A stretch of DNA of 64,000 bases, taken from NCBI GenBank assembly GCA_029258835.1, contig JAPDJY010000039.1, positions 64,001-128,000 of the forward strand, given 5' to 3'. A program made the translations under genes and the position numbers. This document shows, one piece after another, positions 5,546 through 64,000 of this stretch. Under the pieces are notes generated by a model. The model did no database searches. It saw only the letters and a program-made list of their open reading frames with translations, and had not been told where the DNA came from. Source of the DNA: Thermoproteota archaeon. GTDB lineage: Archaea > Asgardarchaeota > Jordiarchaeia > Jordiarchaeales > Freyrarchaeaceae. Position 1 is the first letter of the stretch. The number at the start of each line of letters is the position of its first letter.

Positions 5546-5632
5546 TGGGCGGGCCAGGATTTGAACCTGGGACCTCCACGGCGTCAACTTCACCCTGATC
5601 GTGTGGCGTCATAACCGCTAGACTACCCGCCC
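5546..5632 (-). tRNA. tRNA-Val(GAC) with a 14-nt intron at 30/31 (5589..5602)
   Basis: Cloverleaf GGGCGGG...CCACG-UUGACGC-CGUGG...UUCAAAU...CCCGCCCA (73 nt) after removing ACGAUCAGGGUGAA; central helix CGCC/GGUG. Confidence 0.9.
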
Positions 5633-14962: not shown

Positions 14963-16426
14963 CTAGCCCTTCACTACTCCAATAGGGCGCAACTTGGCTA
15001 CCAGCGAGGCAATCCCAACCTTGTGGGAGACCTCGGCTACTACGTCTACATCTTTATATGCCTCAGGTGCTTCTTCGCTTACTACTACCATGCTGGCGGC
15101 TTGAACAAGAATTCCTGATTTTTGAAGGTCATCCTTAACCTTCTCTCCCCAAAACTTTTTCTTCGCCCCAGCTCTGCTAAGCCGTCTACCAGCACCATGA
15201 GCGGTCGAGCCAAAGCTCAGTTCCATAGACTCTTTCCTACCTCTCAACACATAGCTGGCAGTCCCCATGGTTCCAGGAATAAGAACAGGTTGACCTATAT
15301 CTCTGTATTTTTGAGGGACTGCAGGGTGTCCTGGAGGAAACGCCCTAGTGGCACCTTTCCTATGGACACAAACAGTTTTTTCTGTACCGTCTACACGGTG
15401 CCGTTCAAACTTAGCGATATTATGGGCCACATCATAGACAAGGTGAATTCCAAGATCCTCCGGGGATGAATTAAAGACCTTGCCAAAGGACTCACGTACC
15501 CAATGCATTATGCATTGCCTATTTGCCCACGCGAAATTAGCGGCAGAAGCCATTGCCGCTAGGTAGTCCTCACCTTCTCTACTTTTACCTGGAACTGCTG
15601 CCAGCTCTCTATCAGGAAGGGAGATGCCATATTTTCTTACAGCATGCTCCATAACTTTTAAGTAATCAGAACAAACTTGATGGCCAAGACCTCTAGATCC
15701 CGTATGGATCATAATTGTAACTTGCCCTTCAAACAGCCCTAAGCATTTCGCTGCTTCACCGTCATAAATACGCTCAACGTATTGTATTTCTAAGAAGTGA
15801 TTGCCACTACCTAAAGTGCCAAGTTGCGGTGCACCTCTACTTTTCGCTTTAGAGGAAACCTTGCCTGCATCTGCCCCTTTAAGACATCCTTCCTCCTCAC
15901 AATAAAACTTATCTTCATCCCAACCGAAGCCTTGATCAACTGCCCAGCTTACGCCGGATTCTAACACTTCATCCAGTTCAGAATGAGATATTCGAATTTT
16001 ACCTTCAGACCCTACTCCGCTAGGTACTTCCTTAAATAGGACGCTTAAAAGGCCTTTGAGTTTAGGAGTAACATCGTCTTTTAAAAGATCCGTTCTAAGA
16101 AGACGCACACCACAGTTAATATCGTATCCTACGCCGCCGGGAGACACTACGCCGCCCTCTTCGAAATCGATGGCGGCAACGCCCCCTATTGGAAAGCCAT
16201 ACCCTTGATGAGCATCAGGTAAAGCGATCGAATGCTTTTGGATTCCAGGGAGGCATGCAACGTTCATGGCTTGAATAAGTGTTTGGTCCTTTTTCATACC
16301 TTCTAGCAACATTTCATTTGCAAAAACTTTAGTAGGTACGCGCATACACTTCTTAGTACCTTTTGGTATCTCCCAAATGAAATTACTTACCTTCTTTAGA
16401 GGAATATTCGCGCTCAAGAACCTCAT
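14963..16426 (-). CDS. rtcB: RNA-splicing ligase RtcB
   Basis: LPDAHQGYGFPIGG, GYDINCG, GSGNHFLE, HTGSRG, HNIAK, HRKGAT, STAHGAGR, EEAPEAYKD. Confidence 0.97.
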   Translation of the reverse strand: MRFLSANIPLKKVSNFIWEIPKGTKKCMRVPTKVFANEMLLEGMKKDQTLIQAMNVACLPGIQKHSIALPDAHQGYGFPIGGVAAIDFEEGGVVSPGGVGYDINCGVRLLRTDLLKDDVTPKLKGLLSVLFKEVPSGVGSEGKIRISHSELDEVLESGVSWAVDQGFGWDEDKFYCEEEGCLKGADAGKVSSKAKSRGAPQLGTLGSGNHFLEIQYVERIYDGEAAKCLGLFEGQVTIMIHTGSRGLGHQVCSDYLKVMEHAVRKYGISLPDRELAAVPGKSREGEDYLAAMASAANFAWANRQCIMHWVRESFGKVFNSSPEDLGIHLVYDVAHNIAKFERHRVDGTEKTVCVHRKGATRAFPPGHPAVPQKYRDIGQPVLIPGTMGTASYVLRGRKESMELSFGSTAHGAGRRLSRAGAKKKFWGEKVKDDLQKSGILVQAASMVVVSEEAPEAYKDVDVVAEVSHKVGIASLVAKLRPIGVVKG

Positions 16427-23035: not shown

Positions 23036-23182
23036 GATGCTTTCAAAGGTTAGCCGCAATTGCCTTTCTTTAAAATGTATTGGAGGAATTTCTGATTCCC
23101 AATTTACAAGGTTAAGGATAAACAAAGATAAATTTAAAAACAGGGAAATAATCCTTTGATTAGGGTTTGTAAGGGAGGTGGC

Positions 23183-25607
23183 ATGGCCTTGTCAAGAGAC
23201 GAGAGGTTTGTCTTATGGTTTGAAGAGATCAGAAAAGACGATGTACCGATAGTAGGTGGAAAATGCGCGAATCTAGGTGAGTTAACAGCTGAAGTTAAAG
23301 TCCCAGTTCCACCAGGATTCGCTGTGACCACTCATGCATATAAGCAGTTCATAGAAACCACGAAAATAAAGGATAAGATTTTCAAGAAACTTGAAGGTTT
23401 AGACGTAAAAGATATGAAAATGCTTGAAAACGCATCGGCAGAAATAAGAAAGTTAATTGAATCAACCCCTGTACCCGAAGAAATACAGTCTGCCATCTTA
23501 AGTGCATACGATGAACTCTCTAAACGGGCGGGGAAAAATCCCTTTGTAGCCGTCCGCTCTAGCGCCTCGGCAGAGGACAGGTTTTCCAGCCCCTCAGCTG
23601 CCGGGCGCCAGTTTCGCTGGACAACAGGATACATTCTTAAACGTTACTAGAGACGAGCTGGTAAGTAGTGTTAGAAGATGCTGGAGTAGCCTTTTTACGC
23701 CAAGGGCAATAGCATATAGGGAAGAGAAGGGTTTTTCACATGAAGAAGTATCCATAGGCGTAGCTATCCAAGAGATGGTTGACGCTAAAGCAGCAGGGGT
23801 AATGTTTACTATACATCCAGTTACAGGTGAAAGAAATAAAATTCTTATTGAAGCCAATTGGGGGCTAGGAGAAGCCGTAGTAAGTGGCGCCGTAACGCCA
23901 GATACCTATGTCGTAGATAAAGAAACATTTGAGATCATCGACAAACATATTGTAACTAAAAAAGTCGAGTATGTAAGGGACCCAAAAACCGGGAAGACAG
24001 TTCACGCAGAAGTCCCCCCGGAAAGACAGAATATTCCTGCTTTAACAGACGAGGAAATAAAGGCGCTTGCAAAATATGCACTTCAAATAGAACAACATTA
24101 TAGAACACCACAGGATATAGAGTGGGCAGTTGATAAAGATGGGAGAATATTCATACTTCAAGCAAGACCTGAGACGGTCCATTCTGCAGGGGGAATTCAA
24201 GCGCAAGTATTAGAGGCTGCTGAGGAAAGAGAAGTGCTAGTAAGAGGGCTGCCAGTATCCCCAGGCCTAGGAGCAGGAAAAGTTAAAGTTATCTTAGATG
24301 CTAAGGACATAGACAAAGTTAAGGAAGGAGACATTTTAGTTACAAAAATGACCACTCCTGATTGGGTTCCAGCCATGAAAAAGGCAGCGGCAATAGTGAC
24401 TGATGAAGGGGGCTACACGTGCCATGCAGCAATAGTTTCACGTGAACTAGGTGTACCATGCATTGTTGGTACTGGAAATGCAACAGAAGTTCTTGCGAAT
24501 GTGGAGGAAGTAACCGTTGACGGAGGAAAGGGACTAGTCTACCGTGGAATAATTAAAGAAGCAGCTGAAGAGGTGGTGCCTACAGCTGCGGTAACTTATG
24601 CGATAGTGCCGACAGCAACTAAGATATATGTTAACCTTTCAATTCCAGAGATCGCTGATAAAGTTGCAAGGGAAACAAGAGCAGATGGTGTAGGGCTTCT
24701 AAGAGCAGAACACATGATGGTTACCATAGGAAAGCATCCACGCAAACTCATTGAGGAGGGTGGAGACCAGCTTATGGTGGATTCCTTTGCGGAGGGCATC
24801 AGGAAAGTTGCCGAAGCGTTTTATCCTGGTCCTGTCGTATATAGGTTCCTAGACTTTAAGCCTGACGAATTCCTAGCCCTAGAGGGAGGAGAAAAGTATG
24901 AGTTAGAGGCAGGGCATGTAGGACCAAATCCAATGATAGGCTACAGGGGACAATACAGATACGTTAAGGAGCCAGACATATTCAGGCTAGAGTGTAAAGC
25001 AATAAGAAAGGTTAGAGATGAATTTGGCCTTAAAAATGTTTGGGTAATGTTGCCTTTCGTTAGAGACATAGAGATCTTCCGGAAAGTGAAGGAGATAATG
25101 AAGCAGGAGGGGCTGGATCCCGAGAAAGATCCTGACTTTAAACTCTGGATAATGGTGGAGGTCCCAAGTAGCGTCCTGTTAATTGACAAGTTCTGTGAAG
25201 AAGGGATAAACGGAGTGTCTTTTGGCACAAACGACCTAACAATGCTGATACTTGGCGTAGACCGTAACGATGCTTCGGTACAGGAGATATACGATGAACG
25301 AAACCTAGCAGTCCTCAGGGCAATAGCTTACACAATAAAAATATGCAAAAAGTACGGGGTGACAACGTCTATTTGTGGGCAAGCACCCAGCGTTTACCCG
25401 GACTACTTAGAATTCCTAGTTAGGATGGGAGCAACATCAATAAGCGTAAACCCGGACGCTGTACAACGTACACGTGAAATGGTTGCAAGAATAGAGCAGA
25501 AGATACTGATGGAGAAAGCATTAGGAGTTAAAACAAGAATCAAAGTTGGAAAGAATTTCATAGAAGAAGTCGAGTTCTGGAAAAAAGTAGATGACAATTT
25601 AGAATAA
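23183..25607 (+). CDS. ppsA: Phosphoenolpyruvate synthase; spliced join(23183..23578,23598..25607), 801 aa
   Basis: VGGKCANLGEL; after splicing [52 protein letters not shown]. Confidence 0.95.
23579..23597 (+). other. BHB-type intron (19 nt) in ppsA mRNA
   Basis: CGGCA-GAGG-AC|A-GGUU(UUCC)AGCC-CCUC-AG|C-UGCCG: perfect Watson-Crick outer and central helices. Confidence 0.9.
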
Positions 25608-36904: not shown

Positions 36905-37458
36905 TCAACCTAACTTCCGCTTAATGATCTCTTTAACCAAAAGGTTAAATGCAGCTTCCACGTTTTCACCGTTCTTCGCAGAGGTTTCAAAAAAAGAAGC
37001 GTTTATTTCTTTCGCGTATCTTTTGCCGTCCTCTGTCCGCACCTCCCTAAGGTTAGAGAGGTCAACCTTATTTCCAATAACCACCGTGACAGGTTCCTCC
37101 TTAACATTCTTTAACAATTCCTTACGCCAATTTTCAAGGTTGTCAAAGGTAGAGCGTCGTGTTATATCGTAAACTAGCATCGCCCCGACTGCACCTTGAT
37201 AAAACGTACTACGTACGTGTTTGAAGTGTGGCTGCCCACCTAAGTCCCAAAGCACCAACTTAGCAGTAAGATCGCCTAAGTTAATAATTTTTGAGAAGAT
37301 ATCTATACCTTTAACCCGCTGAGTAGCACGAGCTACCAGCGTATAGTCTTCTTGTAGTCGGCCATAAACCTACCGCTAACATACTTTGATATTAAACTAG
37401 TTTTTCCCACGGCACCATCACCTGCAAGGATCACCTTATAAACAAGTTCCCGTGACAA
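36905..37458 (-). CDS. Rab/Ras-like small GTPase; spliced join(37458..37343,37310..36905), 173 aa
   Basis: TTG start after AAGGGGG; YKVILAGDGAVGKTSL, YKKTI/GIDIF restored by splicing, WDLGGQ, GNKVD, ETSAK. Confidence 0.9.
37311..37342 (-). other. BHB/BHL-type intron (32 nt) in the small GTPase mRNA
   Basis: GACU-AU|A-CGCUG GUAGC(UCGU)GCUAC U CAGCG-GGUU-AA|A; 10-bp intron stem, in-frame TAG, weak outer helix. Confidence 0.85.
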
Positions 37459-63571: not shown

Positions 63572-64000
63572 ATGGCTAATCGAAATGAAGTTGGAACAAT
63601 AAAGTACATTATAAAGGCGAAGATAGAAGTAAACGGGGTGGTCGAGAAGCCTGACGTTATAGGCGCGATTTTTGGTCAAGTACGTTGAGCTCACCGCTCA
63701 CGTAGACCAATTAGAGGGGCTTCTCGGCTCTGAATTAGACCTTCGAGAGTTGCAACGTACGGGTAGGATAGGTAGGATAAGAGCGAACATTGAGACGCAC
63801 GGTGGGAAATCTGTAGGTGAGATTATTATTCCATCAAGTTTGGATAAGGTTGAAACAGCCATCCTTGCTGCGGCGCTTGAAACTATTGATAGAATTGGGC
63901 CGTGTAGTGCGAAGGTAAGTTTTGAGGCAATTGAAGACGTGAGGGAGAGTAAACGCAAGAAGATTATTGAGAGAGCGGTAGAAATTCTTAGGAGGTGGCC
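63572..64000 (+). CDS. dnaG: Archaeal DnaG (primase-like, exosome-associated), partial; spliced join(63572..63679,63711..>64000)
   Basis: [47 protein letters not shown]...[25 protein letters not shown]. Confidence 0.93.
63680..63710 (+). other. BHB-type intron (31 nt) in dnaG mRNA
   Basis: GGUC-AA|G-UACG U UGAGC(UCACC)GCUCA CGUA-GACC-AA|U; perfect central helix, 9-bp intron stem, in-frame TGA. Confidence 0.9.

What the first reader, a model, noticed from the sequence alone, without database searches (positions are those of the whole stretch)
23562..23608. 19-nt canonical BHB intron in the RSSA-EDL-SFAG motif of PEP synthase
The ppsA ORF is split into 164 and 610 aa pieces. Removing AGGTTTTCCAGCCCCTCAG restores [22 protein letters not shown]. 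The central helix GAGG/CCUC and outer helix CGGCA/UGCCG are perfect. The outer helix is made of exon codons (TCG GCA / CTG CCG), which suggests the codons are co-adapted to the splice structure. Splicing could gate a central carbon-metabolism enzyme (inference).
Basis: partly seen in the sequence, partly recalled or inferred. Interest (0 to 1): 0.85.

Follow-up and report, generated by a model that had tools for sequence, protein, structure and literature searches.

The report
tRNA-type intron splitting Asgard ppsA
The only PEP synthase gene of this uncultured Asgard archaeon is interrupted by a 19-base insert shaped like a tRNA intron; every related species examined keeps an insert at the same spot, so the mRNA very probably has to be cut and re-joined by the tRNA-splicing enzymes, which published work shows inside only one other archaeal protein gene (cbf5).

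Summary
Window 23579-23597 (19 nt) splits an otherwise intact ppsA. Removing it joins Pfam PPDK_N profile positions 113|114 without a seam.

The site folds as a canonical hBHBh' motif:
- a 4-bp central helix, GAGG/CCUC;
- two 3-nt bulges;
- a 4-bp inner stem;
- a 5+5-bp outer helix made of exon codons.

All nine ppsA-bearing species of the class carry an insert at the same Asp|Leu junction. The class is Jordarchaeia/Freyarchaeia by the labels of the nearest database records. Insert lengths are 18, 19, 20, 28, 29 or 30 nt, and each blocks translation. 126 other ppsA loci have no insert.

The inner stem shows compensatory changes. Exon third-codon positions inside the helices are frozen: 5 of the gene's 21 invariant synonymous sites lie within 9 codons of the junction (P about 2e-5).

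The genome encodes two EndA paralogues and RtcB.

For an orthologue, two public contigs are 100% identical over 15.9 kb except that one lacks exactly the 30-nt intron at the predicted cuts. The library type of that run is unknown.

The idea that splicing gates the enzyme is untested.

This scan has already reported the same ppsA intron in other genomes and many mRNA introns in this genome.

The parts
23183..23578 (+). ppsA exon 1. The start is ATG 23183 or TTG 23189; the ORF is open from 23156. It encodes the N-terminal part of the PPDK_N ATP-binding domain and ends ...RSSASAED.
   Evidence: PPDK_N profile 2-113. The gene-caller protein P0262 starts MSRDERF.
23579..23597 (+). 19-nt BHB intron. 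It consists of the third base of bulge 1, the inner stem-loop GGUU-UUCC-AGCC, the 3' strand of the central helix (CCUC), and the first two bases of bulge 2.
23598..25607 (+). ppsA exon 2 (669 codons plus stop). It carries the rest of PPDK_N, the phospho-His mobile domain and the PEP-binding domain, with no other stop or frameshift.
23562..23572 (+). 5' strand of the exon-built outer helix: GCGCC, a bulged U, then CGGCA. These are codons AGC GCC TCG GCA.
   Evidence: pairs 11-15/64-68 and 19-21/59-61 are kept in 8-9 of 9 sequences.
23573..23576 (+). 5' strand of the central 4-bp helix (GAGG), made of the Glu codon GAG plus the first base of the Asp codon.
   Evidence: 97% of cells paired. GAG is invariant in 9/9 intron-bearers against GAA in 8/10 intron-less orthologues.
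23577..23579 (+). Bulge 1 (ACA). The predicted cut is after 23578.
   Evidence: The cut rule is calibrated on tRNA-Val in this window and on the contig pair L193/L194.
23596..23598 (+). Bulge 2 (AGC). The predicted cut is after 23597.
   Evidence: As for bulge 1.
23599..23608 (+). 3' strand of the outer helix (UGCCG then GGCGC), from codons (C)TG CCG GGC GC(C).
23648..23650 (+). TAG stop that ends translation of the unspliced mRNA, giving a truncated product of 153-164 aa.
   Evidence: P0262.
14966..16273 (-). rtcB (3'-phosphate RNA ligase), the presumed exon-joining enzyme. It lies in the same window.
   Evidence: PF01139, 606.9 bits, at G000:C1:78966-80273, open frame 494 aa.

Best explanation
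Window 23579-23597 is an archaeal bulge-helix-bulge (BHB) intron inside the coding sequence of ppsA.

Proposed mechanism: on the pre-mRNA, exon codons on both sides pair with each other (outer helix) and with the 3' part of the insert (central GAGG/CCUC helix). This presents two 3-nt bulges. The tRNA-splicing endonuclease EndA cuts after the second base of each bulge, RtcB joins the exons, and the full-length 801-aa enzyme (799 aa if translation starts at TTG 23189) can then be translated. Unspliced mRNA yields only a fragment of about 160 aa.

Shown: motif geometry, its conservation and covariation, the exon constraint, the presence of the enzymes, and an exact-junction molecule for an orthologue.

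Inferred: that EndA and RtcB are the acting enzymes, and that splicing occurs at this particular locus.
For: - **Seamless junction.** Pfam PPDK_N positions 113|114 meet exactly, and the gene is otherwise intact, with all three domains and the catalytic His and Cys motifs.
- **Canonical hBHBh' geometry**.
- **Same junction across the class.** All 9 ppsA-bearing species representatives of the class have an insert at the same Asp|Leu junction. Lengths are 18, 19, 20, 28, 29 and 30 nt, covering every class mod 3, and the in-frame ones (18 and 30 nt) carry TGA or TAA. There is no insert in 126 other ppsA loci.
- **Not an assembly artefact.** One carrier is a manually curated complete chromosome, CP147778.1. 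An independent JGI assembly of this organism, 99.1% identical, has the identical intron.
- **Pair counts.** Central helix 97% paired. Inner stem 100% paired, with two G-C to A-U compensatory pairs. Paired cells fall to 42-58% (one control, slide -3, 67%) when the partners are slid by 1-3 columns.
- **Exon constraint.** 21 of 430 synonymous third positions are invariant, and 5 of them lie within codons -5..+3. This is the only such cluster in the gene (hypergeometric P = 1.9e-5).
- **Purifying selection.** Protein identity is 72-84% while synonymous sites are saturated.
- **Enzymes.** Two EndA-domain genes and rtcB are present. This is the only PPDK_N gene in a 94.7%-complete genome.
- **Cut rule calibrated.** A tRNA-Val intron in the same window, cut by the same rule, gives a canonical tRNA.
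- **Exact-junction molecule.** Logan contigs L193 and L194 are 100% identical over 15,894 nt, except that L193 lacks exactly the 30-nt orthologous intron at the predicted cuts, with no microhomology at the junction.
Against: - No RNA data for this locus.
- The library type of SRR28530378 (L193) is unknown, so the intron-less contig could be DNA from a precise genomic loss rather than spliced RNA.
- The thermodynamic minimum-energy fold of this copy is a slipped variant 2.6 kcal/mol more stable than the BHB fold.
- In one family the outer helix next to the bulge is only 3 bp, and one genome has an A.C mismatch in the central helix.
- Covariation rests on only two compensatory pairs among related sequences.
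Confidence: 0.9

Rival explanations
1. Pseudogene or sequencing/assembly indel: the 19 nt are a disabling insertion or an artefact, and ppsA is dead in this organism.
For: Taken alone, the window shows a frameshifted gene. NCBI annotation of relatives calls two separate proteins.
Against: - The same junction is interrupted in 9 distinct species-level sequences plus about 20 protein clusters. These include a curated closed chromosome and an independent assembly.
- There is no other lesion in 770 codons in any of them.
- Strong purifying selection acts on the gene.
- The BHB geometry is conserved while the insert sequence diverges.
Confidence: 0.02
2. Translational recoding: ribosomes bypass or frameshift across the insert, so no RNA splicing is needed.
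For: Short untranslated gaps are bypassed in phage T4 gene 60 (own knowledge). A stable hairpin is present here.
Against: - Insert lengths cover all three classes mod 3, and the in-frame ones contain stops.
- There are no matching take-off and landing codons: GAC/GAT is followed by CTG/TTG.
- What is conserved is the specific 3-4-3 BHB geometry and exon-exon pairing, which recoding does not need.
- An exact-junction nucleic acid exists for an orthologue.
Confidence: 0.02
3. Genuinely split enzyme: the two ORFs are translated separately and assemble as a two-chain PEP synthase.
For: In most relatives exon 2 begins with TTG, which gene callers accept as a start codon (P0016 starts MPGASFAG).
Against: - In this genome that codon is CTG, and the first ATG lies 59 codons downstream.
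- The break lies inside the most conserved ATP-binding motif.
- Exon 1 would carry a variable nonsense tail.
- This reading explains neither the BHB conservation nor the frozen synonymous sites.
- An 802-aa joined form exists for an orthologue.
Confidence: 0.03
4. Sub-hypothesis of the best explanation, so its probability overlaps with it: the intron is spliced, and splicing is conditional, so it acts as a post-transcriptional gate on gluconeogenic PEP synthesis. The condition could be a competing fold, limited EndA/RtcB availability, or competition with coupled translation.
For: - The alternative slipped fold is 2.6 kcal/mol more stable than the BHB fold in this copy.
- The intron has been retained across the whole class in a single-copy central-metabolism gene.
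Against: - In other orthologues the BHB fold equals or nearly equals the minimum-energy fold (0-1.4 kcal/mol in seven of the eight other orthologues, 3.2 in one), so the competing fold is not conserved.
- Similar introns sit in unrelated genes of the same genome: dnaG in this window, and others per earlier notes. This suggests general, constitutive splicing.
- There are no expression data.
Confidence: 0.12

Closest known systems
BHB intron in the cbf5 pre-mRNA of Crenarchaeota (Desulfurococcales, Sulfolobales; Watanabe 2002; Yokobori 2009, PMC2738675)
   Same: A short BHB intron inside a protein-coding sequence. It is removed by the tRNA-splicing endonuclease and a ligase, is inherited vertically within a clade, and breaks the ORF so that annotation misses the gene.
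   Different: - A different gene: a central carbon-metabolism enzyme rather than an RNA-modification enzyme.
- A different phylum: Asgard.
- A very short intron (18-30 nt).
- Measurable constraint on exon synonymous sites.
- It is one of several such introns in the same genome, not a lone case.
BHB intron in the 5' UTR of HVO_1309 mRNA, Haloferax volvanii (Schwarz et al. 2020, PMC7714728)
   Same: An mRNA that is a substrate of archaeal EndA, confirmed there in vivo and in vitro.
   Different: That intron lies in the 5' UTR, not in the coding sequence, so it does not interrupt the protein. Here excision is required to restore the reading frame.
Non-canonical tRNA introns of Jordarchaeia, Freyarchaeia and Atabeyarchaeia (Valentin-Alvarado 2024, PMC11291895; bioRxiv 10.64898/2026.10.13.758758)
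   Same: The same host lineages, the same hBHBh' motif and the same presumed two-paralogue EndA. A tRNA-Val in this window carries a 14-nt intron obeying the same cut rule.
   Different: Term searches of those papers found only tRNA genes discussed and no mention of mRNA introns. Here the substrate is an mRNA, and the exon halves of the motif are codons.
HAC1/XBP1 unconventional mRNA splicing in eukaryotes (Ire1 cleavage, Trl1/RtcB ligation; own knowledge; RtcB role noted in PMC8718801)
   Same: Spliceosome-independent excision of a short intron from an mRNA. Cleavage is by an endonuclease at stem-loop sites and ligation is of the tRNA-ligase type. Removal changes the reading frame.
   Different: The endonuclease (Ire1) and the recognition structure differ. 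That system is a regulated stress switch, and regulation is not shown here.

Membership tests
Archaeal BHB (hBHBh') intron | [quoted passage not shown] | tested here: met
   GAGG/CCUC lies between bulges ACA and AGC. The central helix is paired in 97% of cells across 9 orthologues.
Archaeal BHB (hBHBh') intron | Flanking helices h (exon-exon) and h' (intron-internal) | tested here: met
   The outer helix is CGGCA/UGCCG plus GCGCC/GGCGC. The inner stem is GGUU/AGCC. The inner stem is 100% paired across orthologues, with two compensatory pairs.
Archaeal BHB (hBHBh') intron | Cutting inside each bulge (after the second base) yields the functional mature RNA | tested here: met
   The junction gives AED|LPG, which is PPDK_N profile 113|114. 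A shift of one base either way changes a conserved residue. The same rule gives a canonical tRNA-Val from the tRNA intron in this window.
Archaeal BHB (hBHBh') intron | The host encodes the splicing endonuclease EndA and an RtcB-type ligase | tested here: met
   Two PF01974 genes (105.7 and 82 bits) and one PF01139 gene (606.9 bits).
Archaeal BHB (hBHBh') intron | The excised and ligated RNA is observed | tested here: inconclusive
For an orthologue (about 70% aa identity), contig L193 lacks exactly the intron and is otherwise identical to L194, but the library type of the run is unknown.
Pseudogene (frameshifted ppsA) | Additional lesions and relaxed selection in the gene and its orthologues | tested here: not met
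   No other stop or frameshift in 770 codons in 9 orthologues. Protein identity is 72-84% while synonymous sites are saturated.
Programmed translational bypass or frameshift | A fixed frame relation and take-off/landing or slippery signals | tested here: not met
   Insert lengths 18, 19, 20, 28, 29 and 30 cover all classes mod 3. The in-frame ones have stops. There are no matching flanking codons.

The most novel reading that the evidence does not exclude
The ppsA intron is not just tolerated but works as a conditional gate. Formation of the BHB competes with a slipped alternative fold and with ribosomes on the coupled transcript. The amount of full-length PEP synthase, and hence gluconeogenic flux, would then depend on the capacity of the EndA/RtcB RNA-processing system. 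That would be an archaeal counterpart of HAC1/XBP1-type regulated unconventional splicing in the closest prokaryotic relatives of eukaryotes.
Probability: 0.12. Interest if true: 0.9.

Novelty: new member of a known kind. Interest (0 to 1): 0.74.

Why it matters
- **Rarity.** The papers I could search document splicing of a protein-coding sequence by the tRNA-splicing machinery for one archaeal gene, cbf5, plus one 5'-UTR case in Haloferax.
- **What is new here.** A single-copy central-metabolism gene depends on this splicing across a whole Asgard class, and the exon codons visibly evolve under the need to form the splice structure.
- **Evolution.** It extends intron-containing protein genes to the archaeal lineage nearest to eukaryotes.
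- **Practical consequence.** Public annotations of these genomes split ppsA into two 'proteins'. Metabolic reconstructions and completeness estimates for these MAGs therefore need intron-aware gene calling.

Tried and rejected
- **Genome-wide scan.** I scanned for BHB motifs whose excision merges ORFs, with decoy bulge sizes and decoy cut positions as controls. The first run timed out. The later runs gave 419-787 'merging' hits for real and decoy motifs alike. The loose motif is common, and excising short stretches often fuses neighbouring genes or frames that are open by chance. The scan says nothing about how many mRNA introns the genome holds. A homology-based census is needed.
- **Spliced forms of this organism's own PpsA in the protein collection.** None were found. 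The best longer hits to exon 1 are at most 62% identical, and the clusters of the closest relatives hold only split forms. Only cluster 7 held a joined 802-aa member.
- **Run accessions in papers.** The prefix SRR285303 occurs in no searchable paper, so the library type stays unknown.
- **Second in-window candidate.** It is left unverified.

Full report
**1. What is in the sequence**

- The ORF list shows ppsA as two pieces, 23156-23650 (164 aa) and 23775-25607 (610 aa).
- The sequence at 23568-23603 reads CGGCA-GAGG-ACA-GGUUUUCCAGCC-CCUC-AGC-UGCCG.
- Translating 23156-23578 gives a peptide ending ...[10 protein letters not shown]. Translating from 23598 gives [12 protein letters not shown]... 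and stays open for 669 codons to the stop at 25607.
- Against Pfam, exon 1 covers PPDK_N profile positions 2-113 and exon 2 starts at 114. It continues through the PEP-utilizers mobile domain and the PEP-binding domain, both complete.
- The phospho-histidine motif ([13 protein letters not shown]) and the C-terminal GTNDL and ICGQ motifs are present (read).
- The insert is therefore exactly 23579-23597 (19 nt), and the gene has no other lesion.
- Moving the junction one base either way would change the conserved Asp or Leu.

**2. Geometry**

- Central helix: GAGG (23573-76) pairs with CCUC (23592-95).
- Bulges: ACA (23577-79) and AGC (23596-98) follow the two strands of that helix.
- Inner stem: GGUU/AGCC closes a UUCC loop.
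- Outer helix: CGGCA/UGCCG, continuing after one bulged U as GCGCC/GGCGC.
- Cut sites: cutting after the second base of each bulge removes exactly the 19 nt.
- Stability: the 61-nt region folds at -29.3 kcal/mol, better than all 200 shuffles (z = -3.4).
- Alternative fold: the unconstrained optimum is a slipped variant. Forcing the BHB costs 2.6 kcal/mol in this copy, 0-1.4 in seven of the other eight orthologues and 3.2 in one.

**3. Calibration of the cut rule in this organism**

The tRNA at window 5546-5632 (minus strand) is read by ARAGORN as an 88-nt 'tRNA-Asp(atc)'. It contains a BHB (CGCC / GGUG with bulges ACA and AAG). Removing the 14 nt 5589-5602 by the same 'after the second bulge base' rule gives a canonical 74-nt tRNA-Val(GAC).

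**4. Relatives**

- A whole-genome search of 41 related genomes found ppsA in most of them (36 of 41 had a PEP-utilizer match).
- In both families of the window's order the open frame was only about 671-685 aa. In other families of the phylum it was about 800 aa.
- Mapping the last 40 residues of exon 1 and the first 40 of exon 2 shows an insert at the same Asp|Leu junction in every ppsA found in the class (9 of 11 species genomes; the other two gave no ppsA match).
- The lengths are 18, 19 and 20 nt in the window's family. A fourth genome there is masked with N across the site. In the sister family the lengths are 29 and 30 nt.
- Metagenome contigs add a 28-nt variant and an independent JGI assembly of this same organism. 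That assembly is 99.1% identical over 3.67 kb and has the identical intron.
- One carrier is CP147778.1, the curated complete 'Freyarchaeia-1' chromosome, described in PMC11291895.
- The closest named proteins are from MAGs labelled Candidatus Jordarchaeales.
- 126 other ppsA loci, from bacteria and from other archaea including other Asgard families, have no insert.
- The lengths fall in all three classes mod 3. The in-frame ones begin with or contain TGA or TAA. The insert is therefore never translatable.
- All nine orthologues are open for 130 + 640 codons once the insert is removed.
- About 20 further protein clusters in public data are exon-1 ORFs ending ...RSSASAED plus a nonsense tail. 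NCBI annotates them as separate 'PEP/pyruvate-binding domain' proteins.

**5. Structure conservation**

On a 9-sequence alignment (A1) the BHB I specified is paired as follows:

| Helix | Cells paired | Notes |
|---|---|---|
| Central helix | 97% | One A.C mismatch, in the complete Freyarchaeia genome |
| Inner stem | 100% | Two pairs switch G-C to A-U; two more vary by wobble |
| Outer helix, 3 bp next to the bulge | Invariant | |
| Outer helix, next 2 bp | Paired only in the window's family | |
| Outer helix, distal GCGCC/GGCGC | 8-9 of 9 sequences | |

- Sliding the 3' partners by 1-3 columns drops pairing from 90-92% to 42-58% (one control, slide -3, gives 67%).
- Only 2-3 of 500 column shuffles reach the observed covariation score. 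The tool's caveat about related sequences applies.

**6.

- In a codon alignment of the nine intron-bearers, 430 columns have an invariant, degenerate amino acid. Only 21 of them (4.9%) have an invariant third base, so synonymous sites are near saturation while proteins stay 72-84% identical.
- Five of the 21 lie at codons -5, -2, -1, +1 and +3 around the junction: AGC, GCA, GAG, YTG and GGC. Every one sits in a predicted helix.
- The third base of Asp and the first base of Leu, which lie in the bulges, vary (C/T).
- No other 9-site window in the gene has more than 2 invariant sites. The hypergeometric P is 1.9e-5. I chose the window after seeing the data, but the sliding scan shows it is the unique maximum.
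- In ten intron-less orthologues the same positions vary freely: GCA/GCT/GCC, GAA in 8 of 10, and CTG/CTA/CTT/CTC/TTG.

**7. Machinery and dependence**

- The genome (2.72 Mb, 91 contigs, 94.7% complete) has two EndA catalytic-domain genes.
- This agrees with the two-paralogue pattern reported for most Asgard genomes in bioRxiv 10.64898/2026.10.13.758758.
- It has one rtcB, which lies in this window at 14966-16273 on the minus strand.
- The two halves of this gene are the only PPDK_N matches in the genome.

**8. A precisely intron-less molecule for an orthologue**

- In the protein collection, the 90%-identity cluster of a 670-aa split form (P0016) also holds an 802-aa member (P0144), which reads ...[17 protein letters not shown]... 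across the junction.
- Their Logan contigs are L193 (SRR28530378, 15,894 nt) and L194 (SRR28530383, 15,924 nt). They are 100% identical on both sides of a single difference: L193 lacks exactly the 30-nt intron.
- The junction GAGGAU|UUGCC is the one predicted by the BHB cuts, and there is no microhomology at the break.
- Molecules with the spliced junction therefore exist in that sample.
- I could not learn whether the run is RNA or DNA. The contig holds no tRNA or other intron to serve as an internal control.
- Spliced RNA is the simpler reading. A very recent precise genomic loss would also point to a spliced intermediate.
- This organism is only about 70% identical in protein to the window's, so the evidence is for the orthologous intron, not for this locus.

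**9. Literature**

- Full-text searches found mRNA BHB introns reported for cbf5 of Crenarchaeota (PMC2738675) and for the 5' UTR of HVO_1309 in Haloferax (PMC7714728). The latter paper states that cbf5 was the only earlier case.
- Papers on these Asgard lineages describe an exceptional load of tRNA introns, and my term searches found no mention in them of introns in protein genes.
- The library is incomplete, so an existing report elsewhere cannot be excluded.

**10. Earlier notes of this scan**

- These are unchecked AI notes and I used them as leads only.
- The same ppsA intron was already reported in at least four other genomes (18, 20, 29 and 30 nt). Two follow-ups stated that RNA-derived sequence lacked the intron.
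- Several other protein genes of this genome were reported to be interrupted in the same way.
- I re-derived the orthologous introns and the A.C mismatch myself.
- I checked one other in-window case, dnaG at 63680-63710 (31 nt). Excision gives an open frame reading ...GAIFGQ|[15 protein letters not shown]....
- I could not re-test their RNA claims.

**11. Verdict**

- Pseudogene, recoding and split-enzyme readings each fail a specific test.
- The idea that splicing gates PEP synthase is possible but has no support beyond a non-conserved alternative fold.
- It is a new member of a known kind, the archaeal mRNA BHB intron. It is notable for the gene, the lineage, the class-wide age and the measurable imprint on exon codon usage.

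Noticed in passing
window 5546-5632 (-), intron 5589-5602: tRNA-Val(GAC) carries a 14-nt BHB intron at a non-canonical position, inside the anticodon stem between positions 30 and 31. ARAGORN without intron handling miscalls the gene as tRNA-Asp(atc). Removing the intron gives a canonical 74-nt tRNA.
   Followed up: yes
window 63680-63710 (+): dnaG is interrupted by a 31-nt BHB insert: central helix GGUC/GACC, bulges AAG and AAU, and a 9-bp inner stem with one bulged U. Excision gives an open frame reading ...GAIFGQ|[15 protein letters not shown]...
   Followed up: partly
window 14966-16273 (-): An intact rtcB (494-aa open frame, 606.9 bits to PF01139) lies 7 kb upstream of the interrupted ppsA. 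The two EndA paralogues are elsewhere in the genome (C1:12233-12481 and C6:39796-40056).
   Followed up: partly
window 37311-37342 (-): An earlier scan note places a 32-nt BHB insert in a Rab-like GTPase gene here. The ORFs around it are fragmented, but I did not manage to draw a clean BHB by eye.
   Followed up: partly
whole genome G000 versus window: The window has 38-45% G+C while the whole 91-contig bin averages 48.8%, and estimated contamination is 6%. The bin may contain foreign, higher-GC contigs, which also inflated chance long ORFs in my genome-wide scan.
   Followed up: no
proteins P0281 and P0282 (Logan contigs): Two exon-1 ORFs from related organisms end ...VAVRSSTPQRIK and ...VAVRSMPPQRIK, a few codons before the usual ...RSSASAED end. 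The break in those strains may therefore sit at a slightly different position, or they may carry an additional change.
   Followed up: no
public annotation of relatives: NCBI records of Jordarchaeales and Freyarchaeota MAGs annotate the two ppsA exons as separate proteins: 'PEP/pyruvate-binding domain-containing protein' of about 136-155 aa, and 'phosphoenolpyruvate synthase' of about 667-671 aa starting at the Leu TTG of exon 2.
   Followed up: partly
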